64,000 nt of DNA, taken from an uncultured Phycisphaerales bacterium. Lineage in GTDB: Bacteria; Planctomycetota; Phycisphaerae; Tepidisphaerales; Tepidisphaeraceae. Both the position numbers and the translations under genes were made by a program. Below, one piece after another: positions 1-52,740 of this stretch. The notes under the pieces were generated by a model that worked only from the letters and a program-made list of their open reading frames with translations, had not been told where the DNA came from and made no database searches. Location of the stretch: NCBI GenBank assembly GCA_963755915.1, contig CAVWLP010000002.1, positions 1,664,001 to 1,728,000 of the forward strand, in the 5' to 3' direction. Numbering within the stretch: position 1 is the first letter of the stretch; every line of letters begins with the position of its first letter.

Positions 1-2
1 GC

Positions 3-239
3 GGGGCGGCGCAGCTTGCGGCGTATCAGCGGGAAATGCGCGGCGGGGAGGCGGGGATGACGGTGGGGGATATTGAGGAGGCGATTGCGGCGACGATCGA
101 GCGGCTGGCGACGAATATCACGGTGCATAATGCGCGGAACCAGCTTGCGGATTTGCCTACGGATTTAACGGTGATTTCTGTGGAACCGATTGTGCGGAGG
201 GTGGGGCGGCGGGGGGAGTATTTGGTGGAGGGGGCGTAG
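3..239 (+). CDS. C-terminal fragment of an AAA+ ATPase, probably ARC/Mpa-like (gene starts upstream of the window)
   Basis: Frame is open from the window edge: GAAQLAAYQREMRGGEAGMTVGDIEEAIAATIERLATNIT...VISVEPI..EGA*. This resembles the final helical part of ARC/Mpa-type ATPases, and it lies directly upstream of dop/pup/pafA-like genes. Walker motifs are outside the window. Confidence 0.5.
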   Translation, partial: GAAQLAAYQREMRGGEAGMTVGDIEEAIAATIERLATNITVHNARNQLADLPTDLTVISVEPIVRRVGRRGEYLVEGA

Positions 240-313
240 ATGGGGATGACACGGGAAGCGCTCCCCTTCGGGTCGCGGCTAAACAAGAAGGGGGTGTGCG
301 AATGGAGATTTTT

Positions 314-2005
314 ATGTCGGGAGAATTGGAAAGGGAGATTGCGAGCGATGGGGTGGTGCCGAAGCTTTGCGGGTCGGATGTGGAGCTGGGGAACTTTATC
401 ATTGAAAGCGGGGGGCGTGGGGGGAATGAAACTGCTCCGGAAGCGGCGGCGGCGCTGCTGGCGCAGGTCAGGGGGCATGCACGGACGGTGGTGCGGAAGG
501 AGGGTTATTTTGCGGTGGGGAGGGATTGGTATGAGGATGGATATGCGTCAACGTCGCCAGGCGGGGGGTATCGGCAGTATGCGCAGGATTTTGGGAGGAA
601 GTTTCTGCCGAAAAATGGGGGGTGTGTTTATATCGATTTGAATCACCTGGAGATTTGTACGGCGGAGTGTTTTAGTGCGCTTCAGCATCTGGCGGCGTCG
701 CGGGGGATGCTGCTGGTGGCGCGGGATGCGATGGTGCGGGCGAATGAATTGATGGGGGATCGGGCCGTCATCAAGGTGCTGGCGAACAATTCGGATGGAC
801 AGGGGCACAGCTATGGGTCGCACGTGAATTACCTGGTGACGCGGCGGTGCTTCAACAACATTTTGTTTCGGAAAATGCACTACCTTCAGTTTTTGGCGTC
901 GATGCAGGCTTCGGCGATTGTGCTCACCGGGGCGGGGAAGGTGGGGGCGGAGAATGGGGAGGGGGGGGTGAAGTATCAGATATCGGCGCGGGCGGATTTT
1001 ATCGAGACGACGATTTCGGAGGCGACGACGTATCGGAGGCCGCTGGTGAATGCGCGGGATGAATCGCTTTCCGGGCCGCGGGACGAGCGGGAGGGGGGAT
1101 TGGCGCGGCTGCATGTGATTATGTTTGACAATGTGCTGTGTCATCACGCGGCGCTGATGCGGGACACGATGATGCAGGTGGTGCTGGCGATGATCGAGCA
1201 GGGGCAGGTGCCGACGAAATTTTTACTGGATGAGCCGGTGACGGCGGTGCACGCGTGGAGCCGGGATCCGGGGCTGAAGGCGCGGGCGCGGCTGGTGGGG
1301 GGACGGGAGTTTACGGCGGTGGAATTTCTGGGGGCGATTTATGAGAAGGCGCGGAGGTTTGTGGATGCGGGGAGAGCGGCGGGGCTGGTGGCGGATGTGG
1401 AGCAGAATATGCGGGTGTGGGGAGAGTGCATGGAGAAGCTGCGCACGGGGGATATGGATTATTTGGCGGAGCGGATTGACTGGGTGGCGAAGATGCGGCT
1501 GCTGGAGCGGGCGCCGGCGAAGCATGGGTGGGAGGAGAGGCGGATGAAATATCTGGACAATTTGTGGTCGAGCCTGGATCCGGGGGAGGGGCTTTACTGG
1601 GGGCTGGAGAAGGCGGGGGGGGTGAAGCGAGTTGTGGAGGATGCGGCGGTGGAGCGGCTGGTGAATGAGCCGCCGGAGGAGACGCGGGCGTGGCTGCGGG
1701 CGTGGGTGCTGCGGAATGCGGCGTCAATGGTGGACGACGTGGACTGGGACATGGTGCGGCTGAGGTCGAGCCGGTTTGGGGATCGGGGGTGGCCGACGTA
1801 TCAGACGCTGCGGATGAACAATCCGTTTGGGTTTACGCGGGCGCGGTGCGAGGGGATTTTGCAATCGGCGGCGTCGCCAATGGAGGGGCTGAGGAGGTTG
1901 TTCAAAGAGATTGGGGAAGTGAATTCGGAAGAAAAATTGGATCGAGAAAGCTGGTCGGCCGGGGTGGTCCCGGATCGATCGGGCGAGTCGGAAAATTTTT
2001 CGTAA
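314..2005 (+). CDS. dop: Dop/PafA2-like depupylase/deamidase (Pup-ligase family)
   Basis: Motifs KLCGSDVELG, NGGCVYIDLNHLEICTAEC, NNSDGQGHSYGSHVNYLV, GAGKVG, YQISARADFIE, RPLVNARDE, RLHVI, IDWVAK, PPEETRAWLR, VDWD. A long W-containing N-terminal loop is typical of Dop rather than PafA. GGAG RBS precedes ATG 314. Confidence 0.8.
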   Translation: MSGELEREIASDGVVPKLCGSDVELGNFIIESGGRGGNETAPEAAAALLAQVRGHARTVVRKEGYFAVGRDWYEDGYASTSPGGGYRQYAQDFGRKFLPKNGGCVYIDLNHLEICTAECFSALQHLAASRGMLLVARDAMVRANELMGDRAVIKVLANNSDGQGHSYGSHVNYLVTRRCFNNILFRKMHYLQFLASMQASAIVLTGAGKVGAENGEGGVKYQISARADFIETTISEATTYRRPLVNARDESLSGPRDEREGGLARLHVIMFDNVLCHHAALMRDTMMQVVLAMIEQGQVPTKFLLDEPVTAVHAWSRDPGLKARARLVGGREFTAVEFLGAIYEKARRFVDAGRAAGLVADVEQNMRVWGECMEKLRTGDMDYLAERIDWVAKMRLLERAPAKHGWEERRMKYLDNLWSSLDPGEGLYWGLEKAGGVKRVVEDAAVERLVNEPPEETRAWLRAWVLRNAASMVDDVDWDMVRLRSSRFGDRGWPTYQTLRMNNPFGFTRARCEGILQSAASPMEGLRRLFKEIGEVNSEEKLDRESWSAGVVPDRSGESENFS

Positions 2006-2017
2006 AGGAGTTGTGTC

Positions 2018-2212
2018 ATGGATACGGAGATGATGGTTCGGGAAATTCATCGTGAGGCGAATGTGGTGCAGGGCGGGCCGGAGGGTGGGGATTCGCAGAC
2101 GGCGGAACAGTGTCAGCGGATGCTGAACGAGGCGGATGCGATGATCGATCAGGCGCTTTCGGGGGATGCGGAGGCGTTTTTGAACGCGAACCGGCAGCAG
2201 GGAGGAGAGTAA
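2018..2212 (+). CDS. pup: Pup-like small protein modifier (64 aa, C-terminal GGE)
   Basis: Acidic, with a low-complexity N-half. The C-half LNEADAMIDQALSGDAEAFLNANRQQGGE mirrors the Pup pattern (D.LLDEIDDVLEENAE.FV..YVQKGG[QE]). AAGGAG RBS; lies between the Dop- and PafA-like genes. Confidence 0.85.
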   Translation: MDTEMMVREIHREANVVQGGPEGGDSQTAEQCQRMLNEADAMIDQALSGDAEAFLNANRQQGGE

Positions 2213-2214
2213 CC

Positions 2215-3842
2215 ATGCGGCGCCTGATGGGAAATGAGAATGAGTATGCGTTTAATGCGACGGGCCCGAGGGGAGGCGCGGCAGACCGCACGCGCGCACT
2301 GCATGAGCTGAATGCGATTGCGGCGAAAGAGCATGCGTGTCTGCCTAGCCTGGGGGGGAGCGGGATTTTTATGGGGAATGGGAGCCGGTCTTACGTGGAT
2401 GCGGGGGAGCACCAGGAGATGTGTACGCCGGAGGTGGATAATCCGTGGGACCTGGTGCGGTATCTGCTGGCGGGGGAGAAGATTCTGTTTGACCTGGCGA
2501 AGAAGCTGGTGGATCGCCGGAAGGTGGGGAGCGCGAAGTTTTATAAGGTGAACGTGGATTATTCGGGGATGGGGACGACGTGGGGGGCGCATGAGAATTA
2601 CATGCACCGGGCGGATGTTTCGAAGCTGCCGAAGGATATGATTCCGTTTTTGATTTCGCGGGTGATTATCACGGGGGCGGGGGGATTCGATCCGACGTCG
2701 GCTGGGAGCTGCCGGTTTACGCTTTCGCCGCGGTCGTTTCACATCAACGCGAGCGTATCGAGCTGTTCGACGGGGGGGCGGGGGATTTATCACACCAAGA
2801 GCGAGTCGCTGTGCAACGGGGGATATCAGCGGTTGCACGTGCTGGTGGGGGAGAGCAACTGCTCGCAGCGGGTGACCTGGCTGAAGGGGGCGACGACGTC
2901 GATGGTGGTGGCGATGGCGGAGGCGGGGTTGAATCCGGGGGAGGGGATGGGGCTGCGATCGCCGGTGGATGCGTACCGGATTTTCGCGTCGGATCCGACA
3001 TGTAAAGAGACGGCGGCGACGGCGGGGGGCGGGCGGGTGAGCGCACTGCAGATTCAGCGGCATTATTGTGAGATGGCGCGGCGGGTGGCGGGGGAACCGT
3101 TTATGCCGGCGTGGGCGCCGGTGGCGGTGGCGGAGTGGGAGGCGATGCTGACGCGATTGGAGAATGCGCCGCAGAGCGTGGCGACTTGCCTGGACTGGGC
3201 CATTAAGCACAGCATCTTCGAGTCGCGGATTCAGCGGCGGGGATTTTCGTGGTGGCTGGTGAAGCAGTGGAACAATTTGATGGGGCTGCTGCGGGTGTGC
3301 GGCGATCTTACGGCGCAGACGGAGCCGAGGCCGCAACTGAACGCGAAATTTGTGCTCGATCCGCAGGGTCCGCTGAAGAACGTGGTGAAGGAGATGACGC
3401 CGATTCTGGCGGCGCGGGGGATGAGCTGGGAGCAGATGGAGGCATTTTTGCAATTGAGGCTGGAGCTTTTTGAGCTGGACATGCGGTTTGGGGAGCTGGG
3501 GCCGGGGGGGATTTTCAATGGGCTGGATGCGGCGGGGGTTTTGAACCATCGGGTGGCGGGGGTGGAGGAGATCGAGCGGGCGACGAGGGAGCCACCGGCG
3601 ACGGGGCGGGCGAAAGTGCGCGGGGAGGCGATCCGGCGGCTGCATGGCGAAGCGCGGCGGTATGGGTGCGACTGGGCGTATATCGTGGATACGCAGACGC
3701 GGGCGGCGCTGGATATGCGCAATCCGTTCACCGACAGCGAAAAGTGGGTGGCGCACCTCAGCGCACGGCGGAGTTCGCGGCGCTGGGGCTGGGCTGGCTG
3801 CATGATTTGCGGACGAATATTGCTGAGAGGTGCTCGACATGA
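2215..3842 (+). CDS. pafA: PafA-like Pup-protein ligase (apparent 1-bp frameshift near 3760-3775)
   Basis: MRRLMGNENEYAF, NGSRSYVDAGEHQEMCTPEV, TWGAHENYM, GAGG, RLHVLVGESN, SALQIQ, LDWAIK, PPATGRAKVRG, DW..., LDMRNPF. An alternative frame ends TAEFAALGLGWLHDLRTNIAERCST* with TGA overlapping the next ATG (ATGA 3839-3842). Confidence 0.85.
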
Positions 3843-4992
3843 TCGTGTTACCAAAATCACTTTTGAAGGAATTGCAGCAGCGGAAGGTGGGGGTGAGGGT
3901 TCTGGATGCCGACACGCTGATGCTGCGGCAGGTGCCGATCAGGGAGGATATGTTCAGCAAGGGGACGACGAATCTGCTGGTGAAGCGTCCGTCGCCGGGG
4001 AAGCCGTATTTGGCGCTGGTGGATGAGGGGCTGAACTATATCGGGGCGGACCGGGATAAGCGGACGGTGCTGCCGGGCGATTGCGTGCGGCAGGGGTGGC
4101 GGGCGCTTTCGCTGGATACGGCGGCGGATCGGGATATGGCTAGCGTGGTGCAGAATGCGCTCAAGATTCTGGGGTTTGATGGGGGGGAATTTTCGGGATT
4201 ACTGGAGAGGTTTGGGAAGAGGATTGAGGGGGAGGTTCGAGAGGTGGTGGGGAGGGAAGAGCAGATCAATGAGGTGATGGCGTGTTTGTGCCGACGCGAG
4301 GCGTGTATGGGGCTGATTGGGGGGGGAGCGGGGGCGGGGAAGAGTTGTTTGTTACGGGGGGTGGCGAAGAAGGTAAATGAGAGTCCGAATTTGGTGAGGA
4401 TTTTTTCGAGGCCCTCACCCCTGCCCTCTCCCGGAGTACCGGGAGAGGGGGTAAGAGCGGGGATGATCGAAGTGAATCTTCTGGAGCTGCTTTCATCCAC
4501 CAGCGATGAGGCGGCGATCCGGTGTTTGATGGAATTGATGGAGGAGGCGGTCCAGAGGCGCCGGTTTTGGCGATTGAGCAGATTGAAATTCTGCTGAACC
4601 AGGTTGCCAATGGGCACCTGGTTTTGAAGCAGGGGATCGACCGGGGGGCGAAGATCGTGGGGACGGCGATGCCGGAGGGGGTGAAGCTGGTGGGGATCGG
4701 GGATCTTTTGCGGCGGGTGCAGGTGGTTTCGCTTCCCGAGCTTGGGCGCGGCGCGGTGATGCAGATTCTCGCTAAGGCGCAGGAGGGATATGGGGTGGAG
4801 ATTCATGAAACGGTTGCGGCGGCGTGCATCAAGGCGGCGAGGGAATTGCCGGGGTGTTTTCCGGGGAAGGCGCTAAGCTTGCTCGATGCGGCGGTAAGTT
4901 TGGCGGTCGTCGGCGGGGCGAAGGTCGTGGCTGCGGATGATATCTATGCGGCGGCGGCGCGGTTCTGGCCGGCGCAACGGGAGAAAGAATGA
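3839..4992 (+). CDS. Fusion of an N-terminal ~115-aa domain (possibly prokaryotic E2/UBC-like) and a single ClpA/B-type NBD1 AAA+ module (frameshift near 4550)
   Basis: ORFs 3830-4597 and 4522-4992 join into GLLERFGK..VVGREEQINEV..LCRR..GGAGAGKS (Walker A)..LAIEQIE (degenerate Walker B)..IVGT..LLRRVQVVSLPE..FPGKALSLLDAA, which matches the Clp D1 layout. There is no second NBD. Confidence 0.7.
4412..4457 (+). repeat. REP-like palindromic element, family A, in-frame inside the Clp-like gene
   Basis: ccctcacccctg-ccctctcccgg-agta-ccgggagaggg-ggtaagag: 11-bp stem; translated as PSPLPSPGVPGEG. Confidence 0.85.
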
Positions 4993-5870
4993 CGGATTCG
5001 AAATGCGGCGGCAGACCAGAGTGTATCCTGGATGTGTGGGATCAATCGGCGCACGATGATGAAATTTGCGCGAACGCGATCGGGACGCTGATCGTGTCGC
5101 GGACGGAATTGCTGAAGGAATTTGATTCGCTGGCGGCGGTGGAGGTGTGTTTGCTGGAGAAGATTCAGGTGATGCCGGATTGCGTGGAAGCGCTGCCGTG
5201 GCTGCTGGCGCTGTCGCAGATCATGGTGAAGACGGGGCGGGCGGAGGCGGGCGAAATGTTTCGCAATCAGGCCATCGAAGTGATTGCGAAAAGCGGGTGG
5301 AACTCGGAACAGATCTCGGAGCACGCGGAGAACCTGCGGGAAATGATCCAGAGCGCGGGGTCGGAGGCGGCCGCGAACAGCGTCCGCCGGCGATTGCGGA
5401 CTCGGGCGCTGATGGGGGACGAGGATGAGGTGGCGTATTTTGAGCTTCGCGAGCTGGCGTTTGAGGCATATAGCGATGGGGCGTTTGCAGATGCGGAGGA
5501 GATCTATCGGCATCTGCTTTCAAAGGATTACGAGAAGCCGGCGACGTTGTGCCACCTGGCGCGGGTGCTGGTGGGATTGGGAAGGGATGGCGAGGCGATA
5601 GAGGCTGTGGAGCGGGCATATTCACTGCGCTCGGAGGCGGAGGGGTATGTGATTGCGAGGATTTATTATCTGCGGGCGCTGCTGGCAACGCTGGGTGGGA
5701 GAGAGGCCCAGGGGCATGTGTCGGATTTGAAGCTGGCGCTGCGGATTGCGGAGAATCGGACGGAGTGGCTGCTGGGGCCGATGCTGGATGCGGTGCGGGG
5801 GAGGATGGAGGGGGGCGCATATGCGCGGTTTGTGGAGTTGGGGGAGATGTTTCGGGATGCGGAGGAGTGA
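4989..5870 (+). CDS. TPR-containing protein
   Basis: ATGA overlap with the upstream gene; TPR-like helices (AFEAYSDGAFADAEEIYRHLL; TLCHLARVLVGLGRDGEAIEAVERAY). Confidence 0.7.
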   Translation: MTDSKCGGRPECILDVWDQSAHDDEICANAIGTLIVSRTELLKEFDSLAAVEVCLLEKIQVMPDCVEALPWLLALSQIMVKTGRAEAGEMFRNQAIEVIAKSGWNSEQISEHAENLREMIQSAGSEAAANSVRRRLRTRALMGDEDEVAYFELRELAFEAYSDGAFADAEEIYRHLLSKDYEKPATLCHLARVLVGLGRDGEAIEAVERAYSLRSEAEGYVIARIYYLRALLATLGGREAQGHVSDLKLALRIAENRTEWLLGPMLDAVRGRMEGGAYARFVELGEMFRDAEE

Positions 5871-9972: not shown

Positions 9973-11589
9973 ATGACCACGACACGTCTCGGTTGGGTTT
10001 TTATCGCCGGGTTTCTGACATGCATCGCGCTCGGTTTACCCGCAGCATCACAGGGTGCGCCCGAAAATACGTCCAACGGTAACTTCACCGTCGGCCAATG
10101 GGGCATGTACGAAATCGCCCTCCACGGCCCCGCCGGCGGCAACCCGTTCGACGATGTCTCCCTCTTCGCTTCATTCACCTCCGGCTCCAAGACGATCGAC
10201 GCAAACGGCTTTTACGACGGCGACGGCACCTACCGCATCCGCTTCATGCCGATGACACAGGGATCATGGTCGTACGAAACTCACAGCAACATCCCCGCCC
10301 TGGCCGGAAAAACCGGCCATTTCTCCTGCGGCCCGCCCGATCCGGCAAACCATGGCCCCGTTGGCGTCACCAACCATTTTCATTTTGTCTATGCCGACGG
10401 CACCCCCTATTTCGAATGCGGCACTACCGCCTACGAGTGGACCAGCCAGCCCACCACGCGCGAATCCCAAACGCTGCAAACCCTGCGGAACTCTCCCTTC
10501 AACAAAGTGCGCATGTGCGTCTTCCCGTCGGAATTTAAGCCGGACAATATTCCGGCCCGCTGGCCCTTTGAGCCGGCCGATCCAAAATCGGATTACACAA
10601 AATTCAGCACCGACAAGAAGCAGTGGAATTTTGCGCATATCAATCCCGCCTATTTTCGGAACTTTGAGCGGCAGGTTCAGAGCCTTGCCGACGAAGGAAT
10701 TGAAGCCGATGTGATTCTTTTTCACCCCTATGCCAAGACGCTCGGCTTCGCGACGATGCCCGCCGATGCCGACGACCGATACCTACATTATGTCATCGCG
10801 AGACTGGCCGCATATCACAATGTCTGGTGGTCGGCGGCTAACGAATATGACCATCTCCACGCGAAGACAACGGCGGATTGGGATCGTTTCTTTCAGATCA
10901 TCGTCAAAGATGATCCCTACGGACACCTGCGCAGCATTCAACAGGACCGCATCGTTTACAACAAACCCTGGATGACGCACGCCTCCATTCAGGGAACCCC
11001 GCAGCAAAGCGCGGCGAAGAATCGCCGACTATACAACATGCCGATCGTGTTCGATGAGATCAAGTACGAAGGGGACATTCCCCCAGCCTGGGGCCACCTG
11101 CCGGCGGAAGACATGGTGGATCGATTCTGGACCGCCACGGTCCTCGGCGTCTATGCCGGCCACGGCGAGACATTCATGAAAAATGGGTGGACCGGCGTCG
11201 GGGGCGTGCTCATCGGGAAAAGCCCGGCACGACTCGCGTTCTATCGCCAGATCATGCAGAGCAGCCCGCCGGAGGGAATCGAACCGATCGATGAGAGCGA
11301 CGAAGCCACCGTCGGCGGTAAAATCGGCGCGTTTTATTTCGTCTACTTCGGGCGCCATCAACCCCCGAAAAATTGGGTCCTCAAGTTACCCGCCAGGGGC
11401 CTGACGCCCGGCACACAATTGCACGTCGATGTCATCGATACCTGGAACATGACGATAGCGCCGGTGAATCAGGTCTTCACCATGAGCAGCTTAATGGGCA
11501 ATGATCTCACGGCAGAAAATAACACGATCGTTTCGATGCCGAATCAACCTGCGATTTTGCTCCGCGTAACAAAAGTTTCATCGAAGTAA
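9973..11589 (+). CDS. Secreted DUF5060/DUF4038/DUF5605-type (apiosidase-like) putative glycoside hydrolase
   Basis: Signal peptide; GNPFDDV..GFYDGDGTYRIRFMP, HFVYADGTPY..GTTAY, PFNKVRMCVFP, WWSAANEYD, DEIKYEG, YAGHGET, DTWNMT. Confidence 0.85.
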   Translation: MTTTRLGWVFIAGFLTCIALGLPAASQGAPENTSNGNFTVGQWGMYEIALHGPAGGNPFDDVSLFASFTSGSKTIDANGFYDGDGTYRIRFMPMTQGSWSYETHSNIPALAGKTGHFSCGPPDPANHGPVGVTNHFHFVYADGTPYFECGTTAYEWTSQPTTRESQTLQTLRNSPFNKVRMCVFPSEFKPDNIPARWPFEPADPKSDYTKFSTDKKQWNFAHINPAYFRNFERQVQSLADEGIEADVILFHPYAKTLGFATMPADADDRYLHYVIARLAAYHNVWWSAANEYDHLHAKTTADWDRFFQIIVKDDPYGHLRSIQQDRIVYNKPWMTHASIQGTPQQSAAKNRRLYNMPIVFDEIKYEGDIPPAWGHLPAEDMVDRFWTATVLGVYAGHGETFMKNGWTGVGGVLIGKSPARLAFYRQIMQSSPPEGIEPIDESDEATVGGKIGAFYFVYFGRHQPPKNWVLKLPARGLTPGTQLHVDVIDTWNMTIAPVNQVFTMSSLMGNDLTAENNTIVSMPNQPAILLRVTKVSSK

Positions 11590-12448: not shown

Positions 12449-13309
12449 TCAGTTCAGGCTGGCCTCGAACGCTTCGGGGCTTTGGTAGCCTATCGCCGAG
12501 TGACGTCTCTGGCGATTGTAAAACACTTCAATGTACTCAAAGATCGAACGCCGAGCCTCCGCTTGCGTTGCGTAGTGCTCGTGATAAATGAGCTCCGTCT
12601 TCAGCGTGCTGAAAAAGCTCTCCATCACCGCGTTGTCGTAGCAATTGCCGGTGCGGCTCATGCTCCGCTCCATCCCATGCTCCGCCAGCATCTGTCGATA
12701 AGTCTCGCAGGCGTATTGGACACCGCGATCGGAGTGGTGCAGCAAACCTCGCTCCGGTCGGCGATGTGTCAGCGCCATCGATATCGCTTCCAGACACAGC
12801 TCACTTCGCAGATGATCGGCCATCGACCAGCCGACTATTTTCCGACTGCACAGGTCGATCACGGCCGCCAGGTATAGGAATCCTTCATCCGTCGGAACGT
12901 AGGTGATGTCGCAGCACCACTTGCGGTTGGGCGCCTCAGTTGCGAACTGGCGGTCCAGCACATTGGCCGCGACCGGCTCATCGTGATTCGAATCGGTGGT
13001 ATGGACGACGAATCGCCGGCGAATCCGCGATTGCAATCCGGCCTGTTTCATCAGACGCGCCACCGTGTTCACGCAGACGCTCACCTGCCGATCCGCCAGC
13101 TCCGCGTGCACCCGCGGGCTGCCGTAGGTATAGCGACTCTCCTCATGAACCTCGCGGATCTTCTCAGTCAGCTCTTCCCGGCGCTTGTGCCGCGGGCTGG
13201 CTGGACGTTTCAGCCAGGCGTAATACCCGCTGCGGCTGACTTCCAGCGCATCGCACAATGCGGCCAGATCGAACGGGTCCCAATGTTCTTTGATCCAGGC
13301 GAATCTCAT
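12449..13309 (-). CDS. IS3 transposase OrfB (DDE/rve)
   Basis: WCCDITY, HHSDRGVQY, GNCYDNAVMESFFSTLKTE, YNRQRRHSAIGYQSP. Confidence 0.97.
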   Translation of the reverse strand: MRFAWIKEHWDPFDLAALCDALEVSRSGYYAWLKRPASPRHKRREELTEKIREVHEESRYTYGSPRVHAELADRQVSVCVNTVARLMKQAGLQSRIRRRFVVHTTDSNHDEPVAANVLDRQFATEAPNRKWCCDITYVPTDEGFLYLAAVIDLCSRKIVGWSMADHLRSELCLEAISMALTHRRPERGLLHHSDRGVQYACETYRQMLAEHGMERSMSRTGNCYDNAVMESFFSTLKTELIYHEHYATQAEARRSIFEYIEVFYNRQRRHSAIGYQSPEAFEASLN

Positions 13310-13608
13310 GGGTTCTGGCTGGCGAAGTAGGCCGTCGCTTTTTTTAAAATCTCCTTCTCGGTTTCGACCCGCCGCAATTGCTTTTGCAACTCGCGGATGC
13401 GGGCCTTGAGCAGCGTCGGATCGTTGGTGTCTGGAAACGCGGGCTCCTCAGCCGCGGGCTTGATCAGTCCACGTTTTTTCATCCAGTGATGCACGATGTG
13501 CACCGGAAGGCCCAGTTCCTGGGCCGCTTTCCTTTGTGTGTAGCCTTGATCGGTGACGAGTTTGCAGGCTTCGTCCTGAAACTCCCTGGAATAATGTTTG
13601 CGTCCCAT
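13306..13608 (-). CDS. IS3 transposase OrfA (HTH plus leucine zipper)
   Basis: YSREFQDEACKLV..AAQELG..ELQKQLRRVETEKEILKKATAYF. Confidence 0.95.
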   Translation of the reverse strand: MGRKHYSREFQDEACKLVTDQGYTQRKAAQELGLPVHIVHHWMKKRGLIKPAAEEPAFPDTNDPTLLKARIRELQKQLRRVETEKEILKKATAYFASQNP

Positions 13609-23849: not shown

Positions 23850-24941
23850 ATGAATTGCAAACCACTTAATTACTCTAAAGTCTCTTTTCCGCCCTCACCC
23901 CTGCCCTCTCCCAGAGTACTGGGAGAGGGGGAAAAGGCGTTTACCCTGGTCGAGTTGCTGGTGGTGATTGGGATTATCGCTCTACTGATCTCAATACTCC
24001 TCCCCGCCCTCAACAAAGCGCGCGAGCAGGCGAAGCTGACGCAATGTGCTTCGAATATGCGTCAGCTTGCGGCGGCCGTTTTCATTTACGAGGCGGAGAA
24101 CAATGGGTCTTTCCCACCAGCGTGGTCCGCGTGCCCGGCGACGTCGCCGACCGCGACAAACCTGAGCCAGGTAGTACCGCCGTGCCTCTACACTTTGCTC
24201 CTGGGGCTGCCGCAAAGCGCTCCACAGTTCAATAATGTGCGGGTGTGTCCGGCCGTGCTGGATGTCTTCGGCGGGATTCCCTCAGGCTTTGTGAATAACA
24301 ACCCAGCGGCCGGTCAGGCGGTTTACTCTTACAAATACAATTTCATTCTTGCCGGGTGTGACACGACCAGTCTTAGCAGCACGTCCGGGCCAGCGTCGAA
24401 TGTTGGACATCCGGTTTACAATCCCGCTAACACCACGTTTTACCCCAGGCCATTGCGCCGGGTTCCCAGTTCCACGGACACCGCAATGTTCATCGATTAC
24501 CCGCAACTTCAGGTCTGCGCACTTTCGACGGAGACAACGGGCTCTGGGCCCGACAACCGCGGGTTCAAAGAGGGTACCGGGGTGTTCCGTATCTTCCCGG
24601 GCACGCCGGCTCCCGGATTCCTGGAGAAGATCCCCGGGGATCCGGACTATCACCAGACCATCGGCGACATCAACCCAGTGCATTTCGTCAGGAACGCGAC
24701 CAACGTTCTGAGCCCGCAGATAGGTTCATTCCCGGCGCTCACCGGTGTTATTAATGTTGCCTATTGCGATGGGTCGGTTCGACCCGCGACGGTTACCCAG
24801 GGACAAACACCCGTCAGCAATTCAAACAATATAAAAAATGCGTTCGTTGAAGACCCGAGCAGCGGCGGAAATGGATTCGTTCTTCAGGGAGTCGATGGAA
24901 TTATTCCTGCGACGAGGTTTGATCCTACGCAACCTCCTTGA
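23850..24941 (+). CDS. Prepilin-type N-terminal cleavage/methylation protein (DUF1559 / H-X9-DG-like)
   Basis: AFTLVELLVVIGIIALLISILLPALNKAREQA...CASNMRQL; C-terminal INVAYCDGSV. Confidence 0.92.
   Translation: MNCKPLNYSKVSFPPSPLPSPRVLGEGEKAFTLVELLVVIGIIALLISILLPALNKAREQAKLTQCASNMRQLAAAVFIYEAENNGSFPPAWSACPATSPTATNLSQVVPPCLYTLLLGLPQSAPQFNNVRVCPAVLDVFGGIPSGFVNNNPAAGQAVYSYKYNFILAGCDTTSLSSTSGPASNVGHPVYNPANTTFYPRPLRRVPSSTDTAMFIDYPQLQVCALSTETTGSGPDNRGFKEGTGVFRIFPGTPAPGFLEKIPGDPDYHQTIGDINPVHFVRNATNVLSPQIGSFPALTGVINVAYCDGSVRPATVTQGQTPVSNSNNIKNAFVEDPSSGGNGFVLQGVDGIIPATRFDPTQPP
23892..23931 (+). repeat. Family A palindromic element, in-frame in the prepilin leader
   Basis: ccctcacccctg-ccctctcccag-agta-ctgggagaggg; compensatory stem change relative to the 4412 copy; encodes PSPLPSPRVLGEG. 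Confidence 0.85.
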
Positions 24942-52601: not shown

Positions 52602-52740
52602 CCTTTTCCCCTCGCCCTGTACTCAGGGAGAGGGCAAGCGGGCGCAAGCCCGCGCGGGTGAGGGCCATGTGTACATCAGATTTCTTCCAAGGCCCTCACC
52701 CCGACCCTCTCCCGGAGTACCGGGCGAGGGGGTAAGAGGG
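52602..52740. repeat. Inverted pair of family A elements downstream of dnaB
   Basis: cccctcgccctgtactcagggagaggg...gggtgagggcc, then ggccctcaccccgaccctctcccggagtaccgggcgagggggtaagag. Confidence 0.85.

What the first reader, a model, noticed from the sequence alone, without database searches (positions are those of the whole stretch)
2018..2212. Lysine-free, ready-to-conjugate Pup-like tag distinct from UBact
Seen: the 64-aa protein has no Lys, one Cys, and ends NRQQGGE. Established: mycobacterial Pup contains lysines including QKGG[QE], UBact ends R[ST]G[EQ], and a terminal Glu needs no deamidation. Inference: it cannot form Lys-linked chains, so tagging would be mono-tagging, and the Dop-like partner would act only as a depupylase. 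It may represent a separate tag subfamily that small-ORF callers miss.
Basis: partly seen in the sequence, partly recalled or inferred. Interest (0 to 1): 0.75.

Follow-up and report, generated by a model that had tools for sequence, protein, structure and literature searches.

The report
Divergent Pup tag, two-tag operon
This small gene is real and encodes a distant relative of the bacterial protein tag Pup, likely attached to other proteins by the enzyme next door, inside a conserved gene cluster that also carries a ubiquitin-like tagging kit and an unfolding motor but no proteasome; its missing lysine and terminal glutamate are quirks of this strain, not features of the family.

Summary
The 64-codon ORF is real: no Lys, one Cys, ends NRQQGGE. 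It has its own ribosome-binding site and 164 database homologues. It misses the Pup and UBact cut-offs but is homologous to Pup by profile (E 3.4e-6), so 'separate subfamily' holds.

The headline traits do not define it. All 4 closest relatives (83-95% identical) carry Lys, and 2 of them end in Gln. Of 119 homologues, 85 end in Gln and 30 contain Lys. Glu-ending Pups and mono-pupylation are already normal in Actinobacteria. The Dop-like partner therefore likely also deamidates across the family.

The context is the stronger finding. The tag lies in a conserved operon: RING, E1, E2, X, Ubl, JAB, ARC-like ATPase, Dop-like, tag, PafA-like. E1-E2-Ubl-JAB-ARC precedes it in 12 of 16 relatives. No 20S beta gene was found in 20 operon genomes, and the ATPase lacks a terminal HbYX tail.

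This Ubl+Pup coupling is mentioned in one sentence in print (Kaur 2020); I found no bench test of it. This scan reported it on other DNA at least six times. Verdict: a new variant of Pup, of moderate interest.

The parts
2018..2212 (+). Pup-like tag, 64 aa, low-confidence N-terminal region plus predicted helix 26-61, ends GGE
2005..2010 (+). AAGGAG ribosome-binding site of the tag gene, overlapping the Dop-like stop
314..2005 (+). Dop-like paralogue (Pup_ligase family). Has a Dop-loop-sized insertion and Dop-type D-x-x-H-x-E spacing; lacks the Dop His95/Ala96 pair
2215..3842 (+). PafA-like paralogue with PafA-type D-x-G-x-H-x-E spacing, no Dop loop and a family-specific helical insertion (about residues 346-420). 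A one-base indel near 3765, absent in related strains, shifts the C-terminus (542 aa in the 94% identical P0005)
1..239 (+). C-terminal end of an ARC/Mpa-like AAA ATPase. Ends GEYLVEGA with no terminal HbYX-type tail; the gene starts upstream of the window at G000:C2:1662565
3830..4992 (+). ClpA/B-like single AAA-module protein, split by a one-base indel near 4561 (likely assembly error). Found downstream in 6 of 16 relatives
4989..5870 (+). TPR protein. A similar TPR gene lies next to the pafA-like gene in relatives, and TPR domains are fused to the C-terminus of 9 of 26 PafA-like homologues scanned

Best explanation
The gene encodes a divergent Pup-family tag that the downstream PafA-like enzyme likely ligates through its C-terminal Glu to lysines of target proteins, that the upstream Dop-like enzyme likely removes (and, in Gln-ending relatives, likely first deamidates), and that likely hands targets to the operon's ARC-like ATPase for unfolding or disassembly without a 20S proteasome. 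Shown: the gene, its homology to Pup, the conserved gene order, the motifs of the two enzymes, and that no 20S gene was found in the genomes searched. Inferred: every catalytic step, which paralogue does what, and cooperation with the co-encoded RING/E1/E2/Ubl/JAB cascade. The lack of Lys and the terminal Glu are strain-level states of labile traits, on top of a mild family-wide preference for Arg over Lys. The patchy distribution suggests an accessory stress or conflict system rather than housekeeping.
For: Tag profile vs actinobacterial Pup profile: probability 87.7%, E 3.4e-6 over the last 29 columns, with I(-22), L(-18), E(-13), F(-11), Q(-5) and GG[EQ] in register. The tag HMM scores 120 Pups 17.0-27.6 bits, against at most 7.5 for shuffled and 3.6 for reversed Pups. 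A GG[EQ]-ending small ORF lies directly before the PafA-like gene in 16 of 16 close-subfamily loci. The downstream enzyme has the PafA insertion plus Gly, and F47-, H174-, S180- and S181-equivalent residues of Table 1 of PMC7947786. Its model (pLDDT 95.4) matches Dop/PafA structures at TM 0.66-0.74. The upstream enzyme has Dop spacing, with the first two motifs 65-121 residues apart against 49-57 in the downstream enzyme. No TIGR03690 match over cut-off in 20 of 20 operon genomes; the 5 weak hits read as HslV. Four operon genomes of 89-94% completeness have no proteasome-fold match at all. Proteasome-free pupylation with ARC is known in C. glutamicum (PMC12288473, PMC8223512).
Against: No biochemical data exist. 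Both paralogues form their own clades, and the quick tree does not join the upstream one to actinobacterial Dop. The upstream enzyme replaces Dop His95/Ala96 and the first Glu of GhExE (Asp here) and has a PafA-type Asp at the S452 position, so its hydrolase role is only moderately supported. Both paralogues are far below the NCBIfam cut-offs. The window's genome is 81% complete and carries indels. It also has HslV and an Anbu-like gene (identified by me from their sequences) that could serve as a downstream protease.
Confidence: 0.72

Rival explanations
1. One reading: a specifically lysine-free, pre-activated tag that is built for mono-tagging, with Dop acting only as a depupylase.
For: True of this strain's sequence. 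The family is Lys-poor: 89 of 119 have no Lys; Lys 0.6% vs Arg 13.1%; none of 121 has the Pup-type Lys at -4. In 15 loci the tags hold 14 Lys against 27.5 expected from neighbouring genes, or 6 against 24.1 without the one AT-rich locus.
Against: All 4 nearest relatives have 1-2 Lys and 2 end in Gln. 85 of 119 end in Gln. Lys-free and Glu-ending are independent (26/10/64/21, Fisher p 0.82) and only 26 of 121 have both. After de-duplication the depletion shrinks (22 of 37 Lys-free at 60% identity; 5 of 13 and 1.55% Lys at 50%, vs 1.85% in PafA-like proteins). The tag of the 45% GC locus has 8 Lys and ends QKGGE. Related sequences are not independent, so the Poisson figures overstate.
Confidence: 0.1
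2. Two-tag relay: the RING/E1/E2 cascade would select targets and attach the Ubl, and the PafA-like enzyme would then add the Pup-like tag (possibly to the Ubl's conserved Lys) as the unstructured handle that ARC needs.
For: Strict gene order, one ATPase for two tagging kits, in 12 of 16 relatives. The Ubl ends in invariant AG, often with a removable tail, and most have Lys in the SGQK hairpin. The PafA-like enzyme has a conserved family-specific helical insertion. A Lys-poor tag would escape modification by either kit. Kaur 2020 proposes a link of these Ubls to target degradation.
Against: No interaction data. The SGQK Lys is replaced by Arg, Asn or His, or lost, in 6 of 32 Ubls. One locus (L040) has a Dop fragment, tag and PafA with unrelated genes upstream, and L081 shows ARC-Dop-tag-PafA with no E1/E2 match.
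Confidence: 0.2
3. The tag does route targets to proteolysis, through HslV, Anbu, the downstream Clp-like protein or an unassembled 20S core.
For: HslV-like and Anbu-like genes occur in the window's genome and most family genomes. A ClpA/B-like gene follows the operon in 6 of 16 relatives.
Against: The same HslV/Anbu-like matches occur in the 8 genomes without the operon. Four operon genomes have none. ARC C-termini lack a terminal HbYX-type tail in the own genome and 11 in-frame relatives.
Confidence: 0.2
4. Roles of the two paralogues differ from the Dop/PafA assignment (both ligases, a heterodimer, or reversed).
For: The tree does not resolve orthology. The downstream enzyme scores higher to Dop than to PafA in PDB sequence and fold searches (158 vs 126 bits). 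The upstream one lacks His95/Ala96.
Against: Diagnostic spacing and loop split cleanly between the two clades. Gln-ending tags need a deamidase. The order arc-dop-pup...pafA matches Actinobacteria (arc-dop-pup seen in L090).
Confidence: 0.15

Closest known systems
Pup (PF05639, TIGR03687) with PafA, Dop and Mpa/ARC of Actinobacteria
   Same: Size, C-terminal helix with I/L/E/F/Q pattern in register, GG[EQ] end with both Glu and Gln forms, and position between Dop-like and PafA-like genes after an ARC-like ATPase.
   Different: Below both curated cut-offs. Consensus AIxRALSGDSExFLRAxRQEGG[QE] is Arg-rich and lacks the QK lysine. Ligases form separate clades, and the PafA-like one has a helical insertion and often a TPR tail. 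No 20S genes were found, and the operon carries a full ubiquitin-like cascade.
Proteasome-free pupylation of Corynebacterium glutamicum (ARC disassembles pupylated ferritin)
   Same: Pup, Dop, PafA and ARC without a 20S core; non-degradative use of the tag (PMC12288473 and PMC8223512 passages).
   Different: No E1/E2/Ubl/JAB in that system as described there; different phylum and tag subfamily.
[quoted passage not shown]
   Same: Almost certainly this operon type: Ubl cascade plus Pup system in planctomycetes.
   Different: One sentence only. In the passages and two supplementary files I could search, there is no tag sequence, gene list or test.
UBact (NCBIfam NF033388)
   Same: Small Pup analogue outside Actinobacteria with Dop/PafA partners (recalled; the original paper was not held). 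Shares RQ at -6/-5 with the UBact tail as I recall it.
   Different: No NF033388 match at E<=1 for 18 tags. 114 of 119 have Gly, not Ser/Thr, at -3. UBact loci are proteasome-linked (recalled); this one is not.
Membrane-inserted Pup ligase plus Pup of Rhodopirellula/Plesiocystis (Iyer 2008, PMC2588565)
   Same: Planctomycete, proteasome-free, G[EQ]-ending tag.
   Different: Single ligase with four TM segments, a separate clade in the tree, with no ARC or Ubl cascade described.

Membership tests
Pup | 50-90 aa with C-terminal G[EQ] (Iyer 2008) | tested here: met
   64 aa, GGE; 119 of 120 listed homologues end G[EQ]
Pup | Score above PF05639 / TIGR03687 curated cut-off | tested here: not met
   14.2 vs 27 bits and 16.5 vs 41.45; best of 18 members E 0.085 and 0.0039
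Pup | Detectable homology of the C-terminal core | tested here: met
   hhalign 87.7%, E 3.4e-6; cross-HMM 17-27.6 bits vs shuffled max 7.5. The Pup set is narrow (80%+ identical to one Nonomuraea Pup)
Pup | Unstructured N-terminus, helical C-terminal part | tested here: inconclusive
   Model has coil 1-25 and helix 26-61, but mean pLDDT 69.8 and pTM 0.37
Pup | Adjacent to PafA/Dop genes | tested here: met
   own locus and 16 of 16 close-subfamily loci
Pup | QKGG[EQ] tail lysine | tested here: not met
   0 of 121 homologues have Lys at -4; 1 of 16 genome-derived tags (L080) does
Pup | Ligated to substrate Lys by PafA; removed by Dop | not testable with these tools
   needs biochemistry
Pup | Binds the ligase groove as in PDB 4BJR | not tested
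Pup-proteasome system | 20S alpha/beta genes and ATPase with terminal HbYX/GQYL tail | tested here: not met
   0 of 20 genomes over TIGR03690 cut-off; PF00227 matches are HslV/Anbu-sized or none; ARC tails. Genomes are 59-95% complete
UBact | Match to NF033388 | tested here: not met
   no match at E<=1 for 18 tags. No positive control was available: the model matched nothing in 201 genomes or 14 controls
   position -3 is Gly in 114 and Ser in 5 of 119; four deeper relatives end SGE, PGE, SGQ, SGE
Dop (upstream gene) | Dop loop and D-H-A-H-x-E site without the PafA insertion | tested here: inconclusive
   loop-sized insert and spacing present; His95/Ala96 replaced (DLNHLE); TIGR03688 254 vs cut-off 492
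PafA (downstream gene) | No Dop loop; insertion plus Gly after the catalytic Asp; F47, H174, S180, S181 | tested here: met
   YVDAGEHQE, GIFMGNG, FHINASVSSCST; but TIGR03686 219.5 vs cut-off 551

The most novel reading that the evidence does not exclude
The tag is the second step of a bacterial two-tag relay. A eukaryote-like RING/E1/E2/Ubl cascade picks the target, the PafA-like ligase recognises the Ubl (through its family-specific helical insertion or TPR tail) and adds this Lys-poor Pup-like tag, and a single ARC-like motor then unfolds or disassembles the doubly marked protein without a proteasome, possibly in defence against invaders.
Probability: 0.2. Interest if true: 0.85.

Novelty: new variant of a known kind. 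Interest (0 to 1): 0.5.

Why it matters
The tag itself is a Pup subfamily that standard annotation misses (164 hits, none of the 120 listed with a Pfam label), found in planctomycetes and at least one acidobacterial record. Its operon joins the two chemically unrelated protein-tagging systems of bacteria around one unfolding motor, with no proteasome found. If the two halves cooperate, it would be a natural hybrid of ubiquitination and pupylation that can be reconstituted from about ten soluble proteins, and it would bear on what tagging does without degradation. The Lys-free, Glu-ending state of this strain is of practical value only: it is a convenient chain-free, deamidase-independent reagent for such assays.

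Tried and rejected
- The search for related loci with the single Dop-like protein gave only one spurious 29-residue match.
- In one search my E2 and ARC-N queries were out of frame; they were corrected, and only the corrected rows are used.
- Complex prediction of tag with ligase was not available, so no result either way.
- The protein Atlas could not read gene X or the N-terminal part of the Clp-like protein. Pfam and PADLOC give nothing for X, so it stays unassigned.
- PADLOC matched only generic E1, JAB and AAA models, not a known defence system.
- No RNA holder was listed for window 1-4000; this says nothing on expression.
- The promoter scan found 1 site vs 3.5 in shuffles: not evidence.
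- No member of the subfamily covering at least 80% of the PafA-like query in plasmid or phage records; only actinobacterial-type Dop/PafA matches.
- The UBact model matched nothing in 201 phylum genomes or controls, so it is uninformative about absence.
- GC content does not track tag Lys count among the 16 loci (Spearman -0.03), apart from the single AT-rich locus. So GC alone is not shown to explain the Lys scarcity.
- 27 Glu/Gln changes on a FastTree of 121 short tags suggest a labile trait, but the tree is weak and no shuffle control was printed.
- Literature searches with no hit: UBact+Pup+PafA; pupylation/JAB domain/E2-like/operon/Pup ligase, 4 of 5 terms (39); Pup+Pirellula+RING finger+JAB+proteasom (41); pupylation+bacterial ubiquitination+operon+JAB since 2022 (111). 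One search returned only Kaur 2020.
- Burroughs 2011 (Mol BioSyst), Burroughs 2012 (Front Biosci) and the UBact paper were not held and may say more about this operon.
- The held part of PMC7203096 had no UBact passage.
- Rejected: sequencing error at the terminal codon; antisense ORF as the real gene (no tag-like features; the + strand ORF is the conserved one); membership in UBact; lysine-free as a defining trait.

Full report
Observation. Window 2018-2212 encodes 64 residues with no Lys, one Cys and the end NRQQGGE. It has an AAGGAG site 7 nt upstream and sits between two Pup_ligase-family genes: 12 nt after the stop of the first and 2 nt before the start of the second. The tag profile finds only this locus in the genome (E 1.3e-19; next 0.36), and only 11 of 22,773 comparable frame ends finish in GG[EQ]. 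A contig from run X1 covers the last codons unchanged. In two related-strain runs the seven listed differences inside the gene are four synonymous changes plus E4Q, N37D and E38K (that table shows 40 rows and leaves out 147). The gene and its terminal Glu are real.

Family. An alignment of 18 tags retrieved 164 proteins, of which the best 120 were listed and analysed; none has a Pfam label. 119 of 120 end G[EQ], with consensus AIxRALSGDSExFLRAxRQEGG[QE]. The tag scores 14.2 bits on PF05639 (cut-off 27) and 16.5 on TIGR03687 (41.45); none of 18 members matches the UBact model at E<=1. That negative lacks a positive control. Profile against profile, the family matches actinobacterial Pup at 87.7% probability, E 3.4e-6, over the last 29 columns. 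The tag HMM gives members 58.9-97.5 bits, 120 Pups 17.0-27.6, shuffled Pups at most 7.5 and reversed Pups at most 3.6. It is therefore a Pup homologue but a separate subfamily. A low-confidence model shows coil 1-25 and helix 26-61 (pLDDT 69.8). Tags identical to those of same-genus and same-family genomes are named Tepidisphaeraceae by NCBI, so the host is likely a planctomycete of that family. One homologue is from a Thermoanaerobaculia record.

The two headline traits. The four nearest relatives all contain Lys: P0156 (95%) and P0155 (94%) have Lys38 and end GGE; P0166 (86%) and P0167 (83%) end KQQGGQ. Among 119 homologues 85 end in Gln and 34 in Glu, and 89 have no Lys. Among 121 (adding the window's tag and P0156), only 26 are both Lys-free and Glu-ending, and the traits are independent (p 0.82). 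Among 16 genome-derived tags, 13 end in Gln.

The effect weakens after de-duplication (1.0% at 60% identity, 1.55% at 50%, against 1.85% in PafA-like proteins). A single Lys-free 64-mer is expected about 7% of the time in this operon.

The consequences drawn are not new either. A 2025 minireview states that there is no evidence of polypupylation in bacteria, that one Pup appears sufficient, and that many species encode Pup-Glu (PMC12288473, passages). Chains through K7/K31 were reported for M. smegmatis PafA self-pupylation (PMC4783102, abstract). 56 of 120 Pups retrieved end KGGE.

The enzymes. Using the diagnostic positions of Hecht et al. (PMC7947786; passages and section 6), the downstream gene is PafA-like: no Dop loop, D-A-G-E-H-Q-E with the extra residue and Gly, and F47/H174/S180/S181 equivalents. 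Its model (pLDDT 95.4) matches Dop and PafA structures at TM 0.66-0.74, with Dop ranked first, and has a helical insertion around residues 346-420. The upstream gene has a Dop-loop-sized insert and Dop spacing (DLNHLE) but lacks His95/Ala96. In a quick 50-row tree each paralogue forms its own starred clade, apart from 3 actinobacterial-type Dop, 2 PafA and 9 membrane-type ligases, and orthology is unresolved. Matched regions under 280 residues would have been skipped (none was), and loci L040, L042 and L043, with split or truncated genes, were left out. The role assignment rests on motifs. The window copy of the PafA-like gene and the Clp-like gene after it carry one-base indels near 3765 and 4561 that related strains lack; run X1 also lacks the second.

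The operon. Upstream of the window, on the same strand (G000:C2:1658024-1664239), lie a Prok-RING_1-like zinc finger, a ThiF/E1 with CxxC and a further conserved Cys, an E2-like protein with HPN...C, an unassigned gene X, a YukD-like Ubl ending DAG, a JAB protease and an ARC-like ATPase with proteasomal OB domains. The RING, Ubl and JAB Pfam matches are below cut-off, and E2 has only a weak UQ_con match in one relative. Pup_ligase matches occur in 10 of 141 family genomes (6 of 12 other same-genus genomes), and 7 of 400 phylum genomes have the close subfamily (E<1e-79).

Of these 16 relatives, 12 show E1-E2-Ubl-JAB-ARC in order before Dop-tag-PafA (10 with RING; 2 cut by contig ends). One contig starts inside JAB, two end just upstream (one of them rearranged tag-PafA-Dop), and one (L040) has unrelated genes upstream of a Dop fragment. 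Four deeper relatives have tags ending SGE, PGE, SGQ and SGE, and two of them show E1 and JAB. The Ubl has invariant terminal AG, with a short tail in 10 of 32 that JAB would remove.

No 20S beta match exceeds cut-off in 20 of 20 genomes; the five weak hits read as HslV. Four operon genomes of 89-94% completeness have no proteasome-fold match. ARC ends without a terminal HbYX-type tail in the own genome and 11 in-frame relatives; one relative is frame-shifted at the end.

Mechanism. Most likely (0.72) the PafA-like enzyme ligates the tag to target lysines, the Dop-like enzyme deamidates Gln forms and removes the tag, and ARC unfolds or disassembles tagged proteins, as in proteasome-free C. glutamicum (PMC12288473 and PMC8223512, passages). 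All catalytic steps are inferred. Whether the Ubl and Pup halves act in series (0.2) or in parallel is open.

Prior knowledge. Iyer 2008 (PMC2588565, parts 1-2 of 3 read) defined Pup as 50-90 aa with G[EQ] and noted non-actinobacterial and membrane-type forms, not this operon. [quoted passage not shown] Five other searches found no further description, but three relevant papers were not held. Earlier notes of this scan describe the same operon or tag on other DNA six times; one of them led me to check the Kaur sentence. I had reached the operon reading before opening them (notes).

Verdict. Observation confirmed; interpretation partly supported. This is a new variant of Pup in a once-mentioned, apparently untested hybrid operon, and the lysine-free, pre-activated state is incidental. 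Interest 0.5.

Noticed in passing
window 4397-4460; also G000:C2:1660241-1660291, window 23891-23934 and 52636-52738: A palindromic repeat of about 60 bases with 211 matches in the genome (184 of 35 bases or more). It sits in frame inside the Clp-like gene and inside gene X of the operon; related strains have about 60 other letters in place of 4344-4466. It looks like a coding REP-type insertion.
   Followed up: partly
window 3830-4992; L038:15680-16801; L037 (reversed) 10033-11163: ClpA/B-like single AAA-module protein with an unassigned N-terminal region of about 120 aa, which to my eye resembles an inactive E2-like domain (recalled resemblance, untested). It follows the operon in 6 of 16 relatives, with a TPR gene before or after it.
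   Followed up: partly
P0006-P0154, L035, L040: Many PafA-like homologues are 700-900 aa, with C-terminal TPR or unassigned helical extensions (9 of 26 scanned have TPR matches). These are possible substrate-selection modules. P0064 (1028 aa) has three matched stretches and may be a fusion of two ligase domains.
   Followed up: no
L004:10154-11134 (G000:C2:1660154-1661134): Conserved gene X between E2 and Ubl, about 300 aa, with no Pfam or PADLOC match.
   Followed up: partly
L041 (G096:C3), between E1 and E2: About 3.5 kb separates E1 and E2, which are adjacent in other loci; probably an insertion.
   Followed up: no
L080 (G213:C63): AT-rich (45% GC) locus with rearranged order tag-PafA-Dop. 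Its tag ends YVMQKGGE like canonical Pup and has 8 Lys; its PafA-like enzyme lacks the insertion after the catalytic Asp.
   Followed up: partly
G116, G120 vs G000, G115, G117, G119, G122 (same genus): Two clearly different versions of the operon occur within one genus, and 6 of 12 other genomes of the genus gave no match. This suggests repeated transfer or loss.
   Followed up: partly
L007 (G000:C2:4949425-4950342) and L006 (G000:C3): The genome's only proteasome-fold matches are an Anbu-like and an HslV-like gene, unlinked to the operon (identified from sequence).
   Followed up: partly
window 12449-13608 (-): IS3-family-like transposase pair (two ORFs); recognised from the translation, not searched.
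   Followed up: no
L004:156-7314 (just upstream of the operon): Ammonium transporter, PII-like and amino-acid-permease-like genes, several split by apparent frameshifts. This fits an indel-prone assembly (names from my reading of the translations).
   Followed up: no
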